A stretch of 64,000 bases of DNA from the NCBI RefSeq assembly GCF_030684315.1, contig NC_081369.1:18187754-18251753 (forward strand), read 5' to 3'. The notes under the pieces were generated by a model. It worked only from the letters and a program-made list of their open reading frames with translations. It did not search any database and was not told the origin of the DNA. This stretch comes from Stegostoma tigrinum. Taxonomy: Eukaryota. Position 1 is the stretch's first letter. Every line of letters starts with the position of its first letter. This document shows, piece after piece, positions 7,325-55,130 of the stretch. The translations under genes and the position numbers were made by a program.

Positions 7325-8555
7325 TTTAGATCAGGTCTATCCTTTTCCAAAACTATTTTAAAACTAATAGAATTATGATCACTGGCCACAATGTGTTCCC
7401 ACACTGACACCTAAGTCACTTGCCCTGCCAAGTTTTGCTGCTTCTCCAGTAGGTACATCCACATACTGAATCAGAAAATTTTCTTGTACACACCTAAATT
7501 CCTCTCCAACCAAGCCCTTAACACTACGGCACTCCCAATCAATGGAAAGTTAAAATCCAATTTCATTACAACTCTAATTCTTATAGATATCTGAGATCTC
7601 CTGACAAATTTGCTTCTCAATTTCCTGCTGACAGTTGGGGGAGCTGTAATACAATCCTAATAAGATGATCATCCCTTTCTTATTTCTCCGTTCCACACAA
7701 ATAAATTCACTGGATGTTCTCCCAGAAATATCCTCCCTAAGTACAGACATAGATTTAACCCTAACCAAAACGCCACTCACCCTTCTCTCTTGATCCTCCC
7801 CTTTCTATCCTTCCTATAGCATCTATACCCTGAACATTGAGCTGCAAGTCATACCCTGCCCTGAACGATGTTTTTGTACAAGCTATGATATCCCAGTCCC
7901 ATGTTCCCGACCACATCAGGAGTTCATCTGCCTTACCTGTCAGGCCTCTTGCATTGAAATAAATGTAGTTTAATTTCTCAGTTGTATCTCATTATCTGCC
8001 TTGCCTTGACAATTTGATGTACTCCTCTTTTCAACTGTACCAACCTCAAATTTGTCTCTTTTCTCAAAATCTCTTTGGGCCTTCTCCTCCTCCTCCTCCT
8101 CCTCCTCTTCACCCCCCCCCACCCCCATTTAAAGCCTCCTGAACAGCACTAGCAAATCTCCCCACCAGTATATCAGTCCCCTCCTAGTTGGAGTGCAACC
8201 TCTCCTCCTTAAAAAGGTTGCGCCTATCCCAGAAGAGATTCCAATGATTCAAAAATGTAAATCCCTGTGCCAAATCCTCAGCCATACATTCTTTAGCTCT
8301 ATCCACCTATTTCTACTATCACTAGCATGTGGCACCAGGAGTCATACAGATATTACTACCTTCAAAGCCCTACTTTTTAACCTTCTGCTTAATTTCCTTT
8401 ATTCTCTCCTTAGAACCTCATCCCTTCTTTCCCTATGTTATTGATACCAACGCGTACAATGATCACCTGCTGGTCATTCTGCCATTTGCGAACATTCTGT
8501 GCCATCTCTGGCACATCCTTGACCCTGGCACCAGGGAGCCAACACACGCGGAATG
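7325..8555 (-). mobile_element. CR1 LINE 5' part (APE endonuclease and ORF1 esterase remnants), continuing 4420-6050
   Basis: EFICVERRNKKGMIILLGLYYSSPN (APE); VCWLPGARVKDV...VRVGINNIGK (SGNH-esterase-type ORF1). Confidence 0.8.
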
Positions 8556-9028
8556 ACTGCCAATGGTGCACCCCATAAAATTGGAAATCCACAAGAACTG
8601 GAGGAACACAGATCTTAAACAATTGTACAAGGTTCCAGAAATTGAGAGACAAAACACAGAGGATTGAACACAAGAATCAGAATTTGAAAATCCACATGAC
8701 ATCGAGGTGGCAATGAAGGCTAGTGAGCATTGAGGAAGGAGGGAGAGGGTCTGTGATGTACATTTTGGAGTTTGGGTTTCTGGTTTTTGAATCAATAACT
8801 GGTCTAAACTTTTGTGTGGCTAAAGTTAATTATTAACTTGTAAGTATTTTTATAGCCAGGGTGTGTTCTTTAAAACTGTTTTTGAAGCCTGGCCTTAAAA
8901 TTAATGGATATTGAGCACCAGTAATGGACTTTAATTGTAGATTCTTTTGCTATCCAGCCTGGTAAATAATGGGATTTCAAATTTTGTTAATCAGTTCAGG
9001 AACTTCTTTTAAGCTTAAAGGAAATGTC

Positions 9029-9440
9029 TTACTTTTTACAGTTTCTTTTAAACAAAGCATTTGCAGTTTAATTTTAATCAAATTTGATTCTTTGCTATCA
9101 TTGTATGATATGCCAGGAACAAGGGTTACCAATCTATGGAGTTTGTTAGGGGAGTCCTCATTTTCATTGTGTTTTCTGAATAAAAGCATTATGCCTTTAG
9201 TACAAATAGCCTTGATCACACAAGTATCTCTCAGGAAACTGGGAGTACTCATTTCCTTCACTACAAATTTATGGATCTTCAGAGAAGTATATCTCTTCCA
9301 ACCCAATCCTTTGACATGCTTGTGGATATTTATTGTATATTCCCTCATAATCATCTTGTTGATAATAGAACAGCCCTTCTCTTTCTCCCCACCTTTCTTA
9401 GCGGGAGCCATCTGGTCATGAAAATGTCATAAAGAGAAAG
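9029..9440 (-). pseudogene. RPL31: Processed (intronless) RPL31 retrocopy
   Basis: MAPAKKGGEKEKG...REYTINIHK...KEMSTP...RKHNENEDSPNKL..LVT is a diverged eL31 with internal deletions. Pyrimidine-start (TOP-like) 5'UTR of about 29 nt and an A-rich 3' tract. Confidence 0.92.
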
Positions 9441-9542
9441 TTTACTGCATCTAGCATTCCCAGGCGGCCTGCCAGCCAAGTATGAAACTCAGCCTGCTTA
9501 GCTTCCATGATCAGACATCTTCTGATGCGTATGGCCATAGAT
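9437..9542 (-). pseudogene. Degenerate 5S rRNA copy fused upstream of the RPL31 retrocopy
   Basis: Minus strand ATCTATGGCCATAC...GTCTGATCATGGAAGCTAAGCAGG...TACTTGGCTGGCAGGCCGCCTGGGAATGCTAGATGCAGTAAACTTT aligns by eye to vertebrate 5S rRNA, with deletions (about 106 nt versus about 120). Confidence 0.9.
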
Positions 9543-10399
9543 ACTGGCTAAAGGAAATGTCCAACTGAGAGAGACTTTTGATTTTTGAGTGGGGCAATCC
9601 TGTGAAGCTCTTGAAATAAGATGACTGATTAGAATAGTGCTCCTGAGGAGAGAATATAGAGTAAACTACGTTGCCTTAGAGTTGAGAGTTGGTGTTAGCC
9701 CCAGACAAAACCCCAAGTGGTTACTTAAAGCTGAGTATAACCAAGCTCAGGTGTACGATAACTCCAGGAAGAAGACAGTTGCAGTACCAATCTAAAAGGT
9801 GAAATCACAAATGACCTGAACCTACCAAGGTGCTAGATACAGGGACACTGGTGTGAGAATGATGAGTTGTGTGTTTTGGCAGCTGTACCAGTGATCTATT
9901 TTGGGTTCTAAACAAAAGCTGTTTTGTTTCTTTTCAATTAATAAAGGAGTTTTAGATTTAATGGGATTATACTTTACCTTAAAATCTGTGCTTATATGAA
10001 TTTGTATTCTAAGTAGATCACTTGGATTATTCTATTTTACCTTTACTAATACATTTCCATTTTATTGATGAAGCAAAATCAACAGCATTGCACACACATG
10101 TTTCAGCAAGAGATGATTTCATTAAAATCAAAACAAATCCAGATGTGATCTATCAATCTAGGTTCCAGCAATAACGACAGATGGATTCATAAAGTGACAA
10201 AGATGGAAAAGGTCATGTTGCTGATGATGGATATGTGCTCTGGGTGCTCATCAGGTGAACACCATACCAAACAATTTGATTCAGCCTTGAACAGTTGCCA
10301 GGGCAAGGAACGGAATCCCGGGTACACGACATAGTTCTTTTTTGGTGAGGATCCGATAACAACTCTTCAGTCCAACTGGTATTTTGCCAGAGAAGAATT

Positions 10400-47990: not shown

Positions 47991-48644
47991 TCACATTCCA
48001 TGTTTCTTCCTGATGACCGACATGGACAGTAATTTCTCCTTATTCCTCAGCTCCTCCCGCAGGATGGCCTCGCTGACCTTCAGTTGCCGGATGGTGCCTT
48101 TCATCTCCTTGATCTTCACCTCCATCAGGGCGATAATGTCCTTCTGCTCGTTGAGTTTCCTGAGCAGCTCCTCGGAGGTGGTGGTGGAGGAGAGTGAGTA
48201 GGAGTGATCTAGGCACTCGGGAGCCTCGGGGCGAGGGACAGCGGCGGCGGCGGCCGGGAGGGAAGGCGAGGACGAGGAGGACGAGGACGAGAAGAAGTAA
48301 GGTCCGGACAGGTCGATGGGCTTGACGTCCTCCTGGCCGGCGGCGGCTGCCGGCAGCTTCTTGCGGGAGCGCCTGATCTTCCTCTCGTTGACCCCTCGGA
48401 GCGGGAAGATGGTCGGGACCTTGACTGAGTAGGTCTTCCTGCCCCCGGGGAAGTGGGCGCTGCACACCCGGTGTCCGGTGGTAGGGTAGAAGGTGCTGAA
48501 GCAGCCCGACACTCCGGTGCGGGAGATGTTCTGAAGCCAGAGTCGGCGCTGCTCCTCATCCTTGGGGAAAGTGTAGAAGCGGAGCTCCCGGTCCCGGTGC
48601 GAGTTGTTGTAGCAGCCGGGCACGCAGCAGGTGAAGCCGGGCAT
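47991..48644 (-). CDS. THAP11: THAP domain-containing protein 11 (Ronin), single exon, 217 aa
   Basis: N-terminus [18 protein letters not shown] matches THAP11. C2CH THAP zinc finger (CVPGC...RVCSAHF...VPTIF), HCF-1-binding motif DHSY, and C-terminal coiled coil ([31 protein letters not shown]). GC/CpG-rich and intronless. Confidence 0.97.
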
Positions 48645-48649
48645 CCTGC

Positions 48650-48900
48650 CGCTACGATCCCCAGGGCCAGCGCTGCCCGAGAGGCCTCTTTAATCGCAGG
48701 CCTGGCTCCCCGGACTCTCCTGTTCACACAATGCCCCCTCTTCCCCACTCAAATCCCCCCGGGTTTATTTATTTTCCCCCCAAACACCGAGTTGGCTGCA
48801 AAGCGCAGGCCGCGCGGCGGAACTACATCTCCCAGGGTGCAGCGCGACACACACAGCCACTTCCGGTCAAACAAAGAAACTGCTGCGAAAAAGGAGCATT
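48650..48900 (-). promoter_or_regulatory. THAP11 CpG promoter/5'UTR with ZNF143/THAP11 composite site and ETS site
   Basis: ACTACATCTCCCAGGGTGCA at 48822-48841; ACTTCCGGT at 48859-48867; high CpG density. Confidence 0.75.
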
Positions 48901-52925: not shown

Positions 52926-54739
52926 CTACCACACAGATGAAATAATCTGGATGTAGGTTTGCTTGCTGAGCTGGAAGGTTCGTTTTCAGACGTTTCGTCA
53001 CCAGTACCTCAACCTGAGCTACAAATCTTCTCAAAACTCGCTAGATAAAATAATTCCAGCAATCCTAAATGTACCATTTCACCAACTCTCTTGTGCCTCA
53101 ACTCCTATTGTGTTATCAGCCTGGATAAGTCACAATTAATCTAAGTTAAAAATTGGACAGAGCACTGTGCATATTGTTGAGTTCTCAGAATAATATCCCA
53201 TCTGAATGCAGCAGCTTCCAGAATGCAGCACTCCATTTTCAGGTTCTGTAGAAGGGTTTCAGATTTGAAATGTTAACCCCATCTCTCTCCACAGTGGTAC
53301 TGCTAACTCTTTGAGTTTCTTCAGCAATTCTGTTTTTATTCACTCATTATCCTAGGTTGTACATTCAAGTTCCCTGAATTCTGTAAGTTAGGTTTCCGGG
53401 AGTATAAGGTCAGATGTACGCACACATCATACTACATCATCTCTTAGTTTGTTCCATTCTATATATAGTCAAAGGCAATGTAGAAGACTTGATGTAACAT
53501 GTTGATAAAGGCATTGGACATAAATTGAAATCATGACACTTCTGAACTTTAATTTTCCCAGCAACAACAAAAGACAATCAACTGGCACTGAGGTATCCAT
53601 CTTGACATGATGTTTTGCACTTGGAATATGGTATACCATTGTGCATCCTGGAAAATAACCTTCATTAAGTCGTTCCAGCTTCTGGGTTGATGTCCTGAAT
53701 GATGAAGCAGTACTTCTGCCAGGTGTGGATGCCTAGAATCACAGAATCCCTACAGCATGGAAGCAGACCATTTGGCCCATCAAATCTACACTGAAGAGCA
53801 TTCCACCAGACCAATTCCCTAACTTATCCCTGTAACCTTGCATTTCTTATGGCTAGTCCGCCTAACCTACACACCCCTGGACACTATAGGCAATTTAGCA
53901 TGACAGATCCACCTAACCTGCACATCTTTCAACTCTAGGAGAAAACCAGAGCACCTGGAGGAAACCCATACAGACACCAGGGAGAACTTGCCAACTCCAC
54001 ACAGATGGTCGCCAGAGGATGGTATCAAACCCAGGTGTCTGGCACTAAGAGGAAGCAGTGCTAATCACTGAGCTGCCGCGTTGCCCTATTAAAAGAAAAT
54101 GAAAGAAGTTTATTGAGTTGCAGGTATAATTTAATGAATTTGGTCAAACCCACATTAAAGCATATTGGTCATTTTTAACAATCTCAATCCTTATAAAAGT
54201 ATAATTTTTAAAATTGGGTTGTCAATCCTTCATCATTGTCCTGAGGTTTCCAGGAAATAAAGATTAATCTCCTCAAGACTGGCTCAAGGAACATGCAAGA
54301 AAATGTCACAGATGCAAGAATTATTTTCACATTTTCTTTAAACATTTTAATTTATTAATTAAAAAGGTAACGAATTGGAGGAAAGGATTGTTTTACTGAG
54401 TGGACCATTGCGAGGTGAGAGCTCTTGATCCCTCCTGGAATATGTCCAACAAAAGCCAGCAATCCTAGATCCTGCAGTTTTGGGAAATTAATTAAAGTAG
54501 TGTGAAATAGGTGAGGGAGTGGCCCAATATGAAGAGTATTTCTTTTAACAGCGACGATAGTTAGAACATGTTCTTTGTCATGGGTAGAATCTATAAGTCC
54601 TTTCCAATGGAATGAGTTAATTGCATTATTTAGTGAATATTAATGAGTATTAAACAGATAAGTAGTCCTCAGCTAGAGTGCTTACATAGGGATGATAATA
54701 ATTTGACTGCTTGCAAGGCAGCAAATTACCACTTCAGAT

Positions 54740-55130
54740 CTGTAATGTAGGAATTTGTCCTCTCGCGGCTGTTCCCTGGACAGCTGAGGTAAACATCACC
54801 TGCACCTGGAGGACCACCAACTTGTTGAAAGATGCACTTTGTCCTGTCTGAAACCTGTTGAACTTCCAGTGTAGTGTTGTCCTCGACCAAGTATTGTGGC
54901 ACTGGCACATTTCAAAACCTAACTACTGGGTGATGCACTAAAGCTTAAAGCAGCTGCTGCCAAAGCATTGTGGGAAAAGGCCACTGTCTCAGGCCTTTTA
55001 TTGCCATGTTATCCTGAGGGTCTGTTAACATATAGAAACCCTCATGACTTGTATTAGGTATGTAAATAGTTCCTTGTCATATTTGGTAAATGTTCCAATT
55101 TTGCATTTGGGTGAGGGCACCTAAAATTGC
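54740..55130 (+). mobile_element. Tx1/L1-clade LINE 3' fragment; a related inverted piece lies at about 56850-57135
   Basis: EVNITCTWRTTNLLKDALCPV*NLLNFQ resembles the W..RN...F C-terminus of L1/Tx1 ORF2. Confidence 0.55.

What the first reader, a model, noticed from the sequence alone, without database searches (positions are those of the whole stretch)
9016..9561. Chimeric 5S rRNA-RPL31 retrocopy inserted as one TSD-flanked unit
Seen on the minus strand, in order: GACATTTCCTTTA (9561-9549), about 6 nt, a near full-length 5S rRNA (9542-9437), the RPL31 TOP-like 5'UTR and intronless CDS, an A-rich tract, and GACATTTCCTTTA again (9028-9016). The 5S 3' end CTTT is also the first four bases of the RPL31 pyrimidine leader (microhomology). 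Known: small-RNA/mRNA chimeras (U6, 5S) with TSDs and a poly(A) tail arise in mammals through L1 target-primed reverse transcription, by template switching or RNA ligation. Inference: this is one such event in a shark genome dominated by CR1/Penelope, possibly driven by an L1-clade Tx1 element (remnant near 54.7 kb). Both partners relate to the 60S subunit, and 5S brings an internal Pol III promoter, so the unit has a SINE3-like architecture.
Basis: partly seen in the sequence, partly recalled or inferred. Interest (0 to 1): 0.82.

Follow-up and report, generated by a model that had tools for sequence, protein, structure and literature searches.

The report
5S rRNA fused to ribosomal-protein retrocopy
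A decayed 5S ribosomal RNA copy is joined end to end to an intron-free copy of the RPL31 messenger RNA between matching direct repeats, likely because a jumping gene's reverse transcriptase hopped from one RNA to the next during one insertion; it is likely a dead by-product of a known kind, and this probable shark genome holds many other fusions headed by small RNAs.

Summary
The unit is real. On the minus strand, an exact 13-bp direct repeat flanks a near full-length 5S copy (79% identical to the genome's own 5S array) joined directly to a spliced, five-exon RPL31 copy that starts in its pyrimidine leader. Both halves have decayed equally (19.4% vs 19.3% at non-CpG sites). A related species carries the same unit between the same flanks, so it is old and most likely one insertion. 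New context: 64 of 106 dispersed 5S/U6 copies sampled in this genome are fused at their 3' end to the 5' end of a tRNA-like SINE (about 0.5 expected). There is also a second 5S...RPS27-like candidate and a U6-histone H4 fusion. [quoted passage not shown] This is a known class (mammals, platypus, anole); I found no report of it in sharks. Interest is modest.

The parts
9549..9561 (-). 5' copy of the direct repeat (target site duplication), 13 bp exact, 16/18 extended to 9566
   Evidence: two substitutions (9552, 9556) in organism B
9543..9548 (-). 6-nt spacer: eroded end of the TSD, untemplated bases or both; not resolved
9437..9542 (-). 5S rRNA copy, +1 to the oligo-T end, 79% identical to the array gene, 15 nt deleted (5 of them present in organism B)
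9412..9436 (-). RPL31 exon 1 (pyrimidine-rich leader), spliced to exon 2; holds T4 at 9424-9421
9068..9411 (-). Intronless RPL31 coding region: in-frame deletions of 9 and 24 nt, 1-nt deletion near 9096; dN/dS 0.72 against the parent; 2-nt deletion at 9400 in organism B
9031..9067 (-).
9029..9030 (-). AA, possible remnant of the poly(A) tail (a longer A run in organism B)
   Evidence: inference
9016..9028 (-). 3' copy of the direct repeat
   Evidence: two substitutions and one insertion in organism B
54735..54998 (+). Remnant of the ORF2 3' end of an A-tailed L1-clade (Tx1-like) LINE; candidate driver family, not part of the unit

Best explanation
This is a chimeric processed pseudogene, a 5S rRNA copy fused to a spliced RPL31 mRNA copy inside one pair of direct repeats, likely made in a single target-primed reverse transcription in which the enzyme copied the mRNA to its 5' end and then likely jumped onto the oligo-U 3' end of a 5S rRNA, and it has likely decayed without function since. 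Shown: both parts, splicing, near full length of both, the direct repeats, equal decay, presence in a relative, single copy. Inferred: (1) priming on the mRNA 3' end; (2) an end-to-end jump, aided by a few untemplated or complementary bases, rather than prior RNA ligation; (3) the enzyme being the A-tailed Tx1-like L1-clade LINE of this genome; (4) an age roughly five times that of the split from organism B.
For: The direct repeat sits at both exact borders (0 of 4974 random pairs reach 13 nt), and there is no inner repeat at the junction. Non-CpG divergence is 20/103 for 5S and 76/394 for RPL31, Fisher p=1.0. Single contigs of organism B span 8514-9937 with both parts and both flanks (runs X5, X7; X11 spans the junction). 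The mRNA copy reaches the pyrimidine leader and the 5S ends at its oligo-T, which is the geometry of an end-to-end jump. The same geometry recurs across the genome: 28 of 40 dispersed 5S and 25 of 42 dispersed U6 copies have an intact SINE head within -12..+35 nt of their 3' end on the same strand, against 0.4 expected; a separate sample gave 11 of 24 against 0.12. Junctions vary, some carrying short A runs. RtcB needs a cyclic-phosphate 3' end and a 5'-OH; a 3'-OH or a 5'-triphosphate strongly reduced ligation (PMC6789731, passages). 5S normally lacks the cyclic phosphate (same paper); that mRNA is capped and SINE RNA triphosphorylated is established knowledge. Human L1 ORF2p adds untemplated bases and jumps templates in vitro (PMC10830420, passages). 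Driver: relatives of the 54.7-kb remnant match L1 ORF2p (E 9e-12), end in A-rich tails, and 1 of 8 copies checked has an 18/19-bp TSD. Neutral decay: dN/dS 0.72; the chance of no stop at this divergence is 0.18; frameshift in organism B.
Against: No empty allele was seen: both species carry the unit. No clear poly(A) tail remains. The repeat is perfect here but differs at five places in organism B, more than 6% divergence predicts, so its true length (about 10-18 bp) is uncertain. The TSD does not start with the A run typical of mammalian L1 sites. A long TSD was found in only 1 of 8 Tx1-like copies (one had no recognisable 3' end), and no exact repeat longer than 8 bp was found around the 5 other RPL31 retrocopies. 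No mammal-type L1 ORF1 was found (a search with no positive control). Sequence alone cannot separate a jump from ligation to a decapped mRNA. The tree test for independent origin of the SINE fusions has little power (0 well-supported branches).
Confidence: 0.68

Rival explanations
1. 5S rRNA was ligated to a decapped RPL31 mRNA at the RNA level (RtcB or another ligase), and the fused RNA was then retrotransposed as one template, as shown for human U6/L1.
For: It gives the same DNA anatomy. RtcB joins U6 to L1 and to other mRNAs (PMC6789731, passages). The junction is flush, without extra bases.
Against: It needs a cyclic-phosphate or 3'-phosphate 5S end and a 5'-OH mRNA end, and it predicts variably 5'-truncated partners. 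Here the mRNA reaches its leader, and dozens of SINE partners begin at their 5' ends.
Confidence: 0.12
2. One insertion by a template jump, but driven by another LINE (CR1, L2, RTE or a lost L1 lineage) rather than the Tx1-like family.
For: U6 chimeras form with L1, L2 and RTE clades in anole and platypus (PMC4476161, passages). In this genome small RNAs are also fused to CR1-like ORF fragments (L103, L106, L113, L141, L155, recognised by recalled motifs). The target lacks the mammalian L1 pattern.
Against: L2 chimeras have TSDs of 1-9 bp, and stringent LINEs rarely mobilise mRNAs. The SINE fusions here mostly lack long TSDs (4 of 83 loci scored 11 or more, equal to the control), whereas this unit has a long one, as does a Tx1-like copy.
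Confidence: 0.12
3. Two independent insertions: a 5S retrocopy first, then an RPL31 retrocopy into its 3' end (or targeting of 5S by a site-specific Tx1).
For: Both classes are common on their own: 6 RPL31 retrocopies and dozens of dispersed 5S copies. Tx1 families that target 5S exist (PMC4494074, figure legend passage). No empty or intermediate allele was seen.
Against: There is no second pair of repeats and no 5S or spacer sequence beyond the RPL31 3' end. The one repeat encloses both parts, and their decay is equal. It needs base-exact abutment of two complete ends.
Confidence: 0.06
4. The unit is a working SINE3-like element, or a Pol III-driven retrogene kept by selection.
For: The 5S head keeps most of box A, and the frame from the ATG is open for 144 codons in this species.
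Against: No second copy among 40 scored matches. A 5-nt deletion before box C, substitutions in box C and a T4 run before the ATG (box positions recalled). dN/dS is 0.72, an open frame is expected by chance 18% of the time, and organism B has a frameshift.
Confidence: 0.02

Closest known systems
Bipartite chimeric retrogenes of mammals (U6, U3, U5, 5S or 7SL fused to L1, Alu or processed pseudogenes; Buzdin 2002/2003, Garcia-Perez 2007, as summarised in PMC4476161, PMC6789731, PMC2104539, PMC1802619; passages read, originals not seen)
   Same: Small RNA 5' of an mRNA copy, same orientation, direct join, one TSD pair.
   Different: Human 5S/L1 chimeras are mostly antisense and truncated (PMC11838501), and non-U6 partners tend to be 3'-truncated. 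Here 5S is sense and 3'-complete, the mRNA is full length, the poly(A) is not preserved, and the host is a probable shark.
U6-L2, U6-Mon-1 and U6-AnolisSINE2 chimeras of platypus and anole (PMC4476161, passages)
   Same: Non-mammalian-L1 template switching onto a small RNA; closest to the many U6/5S-SINE fusions found here.
   Different: That survey used U6 only and no cartilaginous fish (0 occurrences of 'shark'); platypus U6 parts are mostly 5'-truncated. Here 5S is as common a head as U6, and 62 of 82 heads are close to 5'-complete.
SINE3 / AmnSINE1 / OS-SINE1 (5S-headed SINEs; PMC3747384, PMC4494074, passages)
   Same: A 5S-derived head in front of another RNA-derived body; thought to arise by such fusions.
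   Different: This unit is single copy, has no LINE tail and has a Pol III stop just after the head; it never amplified.
Processed pseudogenes of cartilaginous fishes (bioRxiv 10.64898/2026.06.26.734816, passages)
   Same: Retrocopies are common in this lineage (14,081 counted) and are attributed to CR1 or Tx1 in non-mammals.
   Different: That text has no occurrence of 'chimer'; fused small-RNA heads are not treated in the main text (supplements not seen).

Membership tests
Chimeric retrogene (small RNA-mRNA) | Two different cellular RNAs joined directly, in the same orientation | tested here: met
Chimeric retrogene (small RNA-mRNA) | mRNA part is processed (introns absent) | tested here: met
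   four junctions of five exons
Chimeric retrogene (small RNA-mRNA) | One TSD pair around both parts | tested here: met
   13/13 here; eroded in organism B
Chimeric retrogene (small RNA-mRNA) | 3' poly(A) tail | tested here: inconclusive
   only AA remains; the A-rich stretch is 3'UTR; a longer A run in organism B
Chimeric retrogene (small RNA-mRNA) | Both parts arrive together (empty orthologous site with one repeat) | tested here: inconclusive
   the relative has the filled site; equal decay; no empty allele available
Mammalian L1-driven insertion | L1 endonuclease site (A-rich start of the TSD; pattern recalled) | tested here: not met
   TSD starts GAC
Tx1/L1-clade driven insertion | An A-tailed L1-clade LINE making long TSDs exists in the genome | tested here: met
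   the Tx1 label itself is recalled, not tested on a tree
Tx1/L1-clade driven insertion | That enzyme made this insertion | not testable with these tools
   needs a genome-wide TSD census or a retrotransposition assay
SINE3 (5S-headed SINE) | Multiple copies sharing head, body and junction | tested here: not met
   0 of 5 other RPL31 retrocopies have 5S
SINE3 (5S-headed SINE) | Intact type-1 Pol III promoter and read-through to the 3' end | tested here: not met
   deletions and substitutions; T4 at 9424; box positions recalled
RtcB-ligated U6/L1-type chimera | Small RNA with a 2',3'-cyclic phosphate joined to a 5'-OH, variably truncated partner | not testable with these tools
   end chemistry is not visible in DNA; the full-length partner argues against

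The most novel reading that the evidence does not exclude
Shark LINE reverse transcriptases routinely finish an RNA and jump end to end onto oligo-U-ended Pol III RNAs. On this reading most dispersed 5S and U6 copies in this genome (probably hundreds) are independent, ligase-independent fusions to full-length SINEs, LINE fragments and mRNAs (RPL31, an RPS27-like mRNA, histone H4), some with three parts. The genome would be a large, unreported fossil record of template jumping and a standing pool of proto-SINE3 elements.
Probability: 0.5. Interest if true: 0.55.

Novelty: new member of a known kind. Interest (0 to 1): 0.38.

Why it matters
The locus itself is a dead pseudogene. Its value lies in the mechanism. 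In humans it is open how much of small-RNA chimera formation is RNA ligation and how much is template switching. A 3'-complete 5S joined to a full-length mRNA, together with dozens of 5S/U6 copies joined to native SINE 5' ends, are cases that RtcB chemistry explains poorly, and they can be counted in one genome. They extend the class to a probable cartilaginous fish and show the raw step by which 5S-headed SINEs are thought to arise. The shared insertion is also a usable presence/absence marker for shark phylogeny.

Tried and rejected
Rfam alone does not call this 5S (below gathering score), so identity rests on alignment to the genome's own gene. Expression: no RNA holder was listed. The one contig of the guessed RNA run that lay on 9292-9410 differs at 21 of 119 letters and continues as the parent gene, so it is the parent mRNA. 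Joints skipping about 8973-9920 have sides under 30 nt and were set aside as repeat matches. An empty-site proxy through a repeated flank was sought in 598 kb of held loci: nothing useful. Host-gene context: 150 of 154 non-repeat ORFs in window 1-34,000 gave no Pfam hit, so no host gene was identified; the only gene seen is a THAP-domain gene at 48 kb. Pfam did not recognise the 54.7-kb remnant, and the L1 ORF1 family search was empty with no positive control. ARAGORN found no tRNA in 6 chimera loci, so 'tRNA-like' and 'HE1' are recalled labels. A shared tail between the main SINE and CR1-like ends was inconclusive (a 16-nt match, near shuffle maxima). A 10-bp repeat first seen around L161 lies inside the parent's 3'UTR and was dropped. 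No TSD was supported for the U6-H4 fusion. A DNA-level copy of a 5S gene was rejected: there is no spacer sequence on either side beyond 3-4 chance bases. Buzdin et al. 2003 is not held, so I could not check whether it lists a 5S-mRNA case. Earlier-finding look-ups in this genome and in relatives were empty.

Full report
Setting. The window is G000:C19:18187754-18251753 of a 3.2-Gb assembly. The closest proteins to a LINE family in it come from sharks, so 'shark' is an inference from homologues.

Observation. The minus strand reads, in order: a 13-mer (9561-9549), 6 nt, a 5S-like stretch (9542-9437), an RPL31-like stretch, and the same 13-mer (9028-9016). The genome's 5S genes form an array on C35. 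The window copy matches them at 89 of 113 columns from +1 to the oligo-T end with 15 nt missing; the score is 116 against at most 46 in 2000 shuffles, and no other tile among 1826 in the window exceeds 46. Rfam spans the whole model but at 16.9 bits, under its cut-off. The RPL31 parent lies on C6 with five exons. The window copy joins all five, starting in the pyrimidine leader of exon 1, at 332 of 427 columns. The repeat is far beyond chance at those borders: 0 of 4974 random pairs reach 13 nt.

Corrections. The A-rich stretch before the 3' repeat aligns to the parent's own 3'UTR and poly(A) signal; only two A are unexplained. The parent's leader does not begin with CTTT, and the join falls in a pyrimidine run that either RNA could have supplied, so microhomology is neither shown nor excluded.

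One event, and old. Non-CpG divergence is 20/103 in the 5S part and 76/394 in the RPL31 part. A related species, organism B, holds the whole unit with both flanks on single contigs of 1434-1436 nt with 88 differing letters (runs X5, X7); a third study confirms the junction region (X11). Of 30 listed differences inside the unit, 16 arose on this lineage, 10 on B's and 4 could not be polarised. That is about 3-4% since the split against about 19% in all, so the insertion is roughly five times older than the split (rough; part of the mRNA divergence is the parent's own). Against the neat picture, B differs at five places in the two repeats. At each, three of the four copies agree with the window's version, which is the simplest ancestor, but a shorter TSD preceded by an A tail cannot be excluded. 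No empty allele was available.

Dead. dN/dS against the parent is 0.72 over 110 codons, and an open frame at this divergence occurred in 18% of simulations; B has a 2-nt deletion at 9400. A DNA search with the 5S and junction returned only the locus itself and array genes among 40 scored of 64 candidates. None of the 5 other RPL31 retrocopies and none of 5 other RPS27-like loci tested has a 5S. A T4 run 15 nt before the ATG, inherited from the parent's leader, would stop Pol III. The SINE3 comparison is therefore architectural only.

Genome-wide context. Dispersed 5S copies were sampled with CpG-decay patterns (46 hits; dropped 3 array copies, 1 array-like orphan and 2 duplicates) and U6 copies with Rfam (48 hits; dropped 6 in the gene cluster). 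Profiles were built from free SINE copies (13, 1 and 3 copies, found with seeds taken from three chimeras). With them, 28 of 40 5S and 25 of 42 U6 copies have an intact SINE head within -12..+35 nt of their 3' end on the same strand, mostly within 6 nt; 0.4 would be expected. A further pattern (28 hits, 4 duplicates dropped) gave 11 of 24 against 0.12. Junctions differ, some with short A runs, and the fused SINEs mix with free ones on a tree, though no branch is well supported. These samples are biased to younger copies and are not a census. Other partners: CR1-like fragments (label recalled); a U6 fused to the 5' part of a histone H4 sequence (L132; E 3e-11; no TSD); a 5S-5S tandem inside a 13/14 repeat (L172); and L161. 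L161 is a 5S copy followed by about 190 nt of unknown origin and a full-length, spliced, A-tailed RPS27-like retrocopy; the 14 nt after its tail match best (12 of 14, next best 9, among 1740 positions) at the 5S 5' end. It is a candidate second 5S-ribosomal-protein unit, but two separate insertions are possible there.

Driver. The remnant at 54,735-54,998 has at least 40 relatives at 70-76% identity. They end in A-rich tails, and one of eight checked has an 18/19-bp TSD. A shark homologue matches human L1 ORF2p (E 9e-12). So an L1-clade, Tx1-like (label recalled) LINE able to make long TSDs existed at a comparable age. That it made this insertion is inference. The SINE fusions mostly lack long TSDs and probably had another driver.

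Mechanism. The likeliest path is priming at the mRNA 3' end, copying to the 5' end, a jump onto the oligo-U end of a 5S rRNA, copying to 5S +1, and second-strand joining with a staggered cut. Human L1 ORF2p adds untemplated bases and jumps templates in vitro (PMC10830420, passages). RNA ligation is the main rival, but RtcB needs a cyclic phosphate and a 5'-OH, works poorly with a 3'-OH or a 5'-triphosphate, and the authors leave 5S cases open to switching (PMC6789731, passages). The pairing of 5S with a 60S protein mRNA is best read as abundance.

What is known. Small RNA-L1, -Alu and -mRNA chimeras are established in mammals and fungi (PMC2104539, PMC4476161, PMC1802619, PMC4494074; passages). 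Human 5S/L1 cases are mostly antisense and truncated (PMC11838501, passages). U6-SINE chimeras occur in platypus and anole. Retrocopies are common in cartilaginous fishes (bioRxiv 10.64898/2026.06.26.734816, passages). PMC3747384, PMC7245038 and PMC5499810 (passages) describe shark and hagfish SINEs without such fusions in the passages seen. Seven searches (listings only for the papers not named above) showed no report of 5S/U6 chimeras in sharks, nor of a 3'-complete sense 5S on a full-length mRNA. The library lacks most subscription papers and Repbase, Buzdin 2003 was not held, and no supplements were read, so absence from print is not established.

Verdict. A real, old, single-copy chimeric processed pseudogene: a new member of a known kind, in a lineage where I found it unreported. 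The more interesting result is the frequency of such fusions across the genome. Interest 0.38.

Noticed in passing
G000-wide; loci L076-L084, L100-L163, L168-L179, L195-L222: 64 of 106 sampled dispersed 5S/U6 copies are fused at their 3' end to the head of one of three tRNA-like SINE types (about 0.5 expected); several more look so by eye.
   Followed up: partly
L161 (G000:C33:26794486-26797503, minus): 5S copy, about 190 nt of unknown origin, then a full-length spliced RPS27-like retrocopy with an A tail, inside a 12/14 direct repeat; candidate three-part chimera.
   Followed up: partly
L132 (G000:C11:6225344-6228447, minus): 5'-truncated U6 joined to the leader and first about 65 codons of a histone H4 sequence; no TSD supported.
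   Followed up: partly
L172 (G000:C20:36316752-36319769, minus): Two 5S copies end to end (62-117, then 1-117) inside a 13/14 direct repeat with no A tail.
   Followed up: partly
L079 (G000:C13:26159021-26162042, minus): 5S followed by a tRNA-like stretch and then a SINE head: possible three-part chimera (ARAGORN did not call the tRNA).
   Followed up: partly
L035-L039; L181-L185: Five more RPL31 and at least four more RPS27-like retrocopies, 69-83% identical to the parent or the query, with short or eroded tails.
   Followed up: partly
window 54735-54998 (+); L086-L094: A-tailed L1-clade (Tx1-like) LINE family, mostly short 3' fragments; L090 has an 18/19-bp TSD.
   Followed up: partly
window 47991-48689 (-): Single-ORF THAP-domain gene of 232 aa (THAP11-like by recalled motif; Pfam PF05485).
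   Followed up: no
L092:2-1288 (+): Long uninterrupted 429-aa CR1-like reverse transcriptase frame (label recalled), suggesting a young copy.
   Followed up: no
G000:C35 about 3.09-3.27 Mb and 4.95 Mb; C34 about 37.84-37.87 Mb: 5S rDNA tandem array with a repeat of about 3.5 kb, and a cluster of U6 genes.
   Followed up: no
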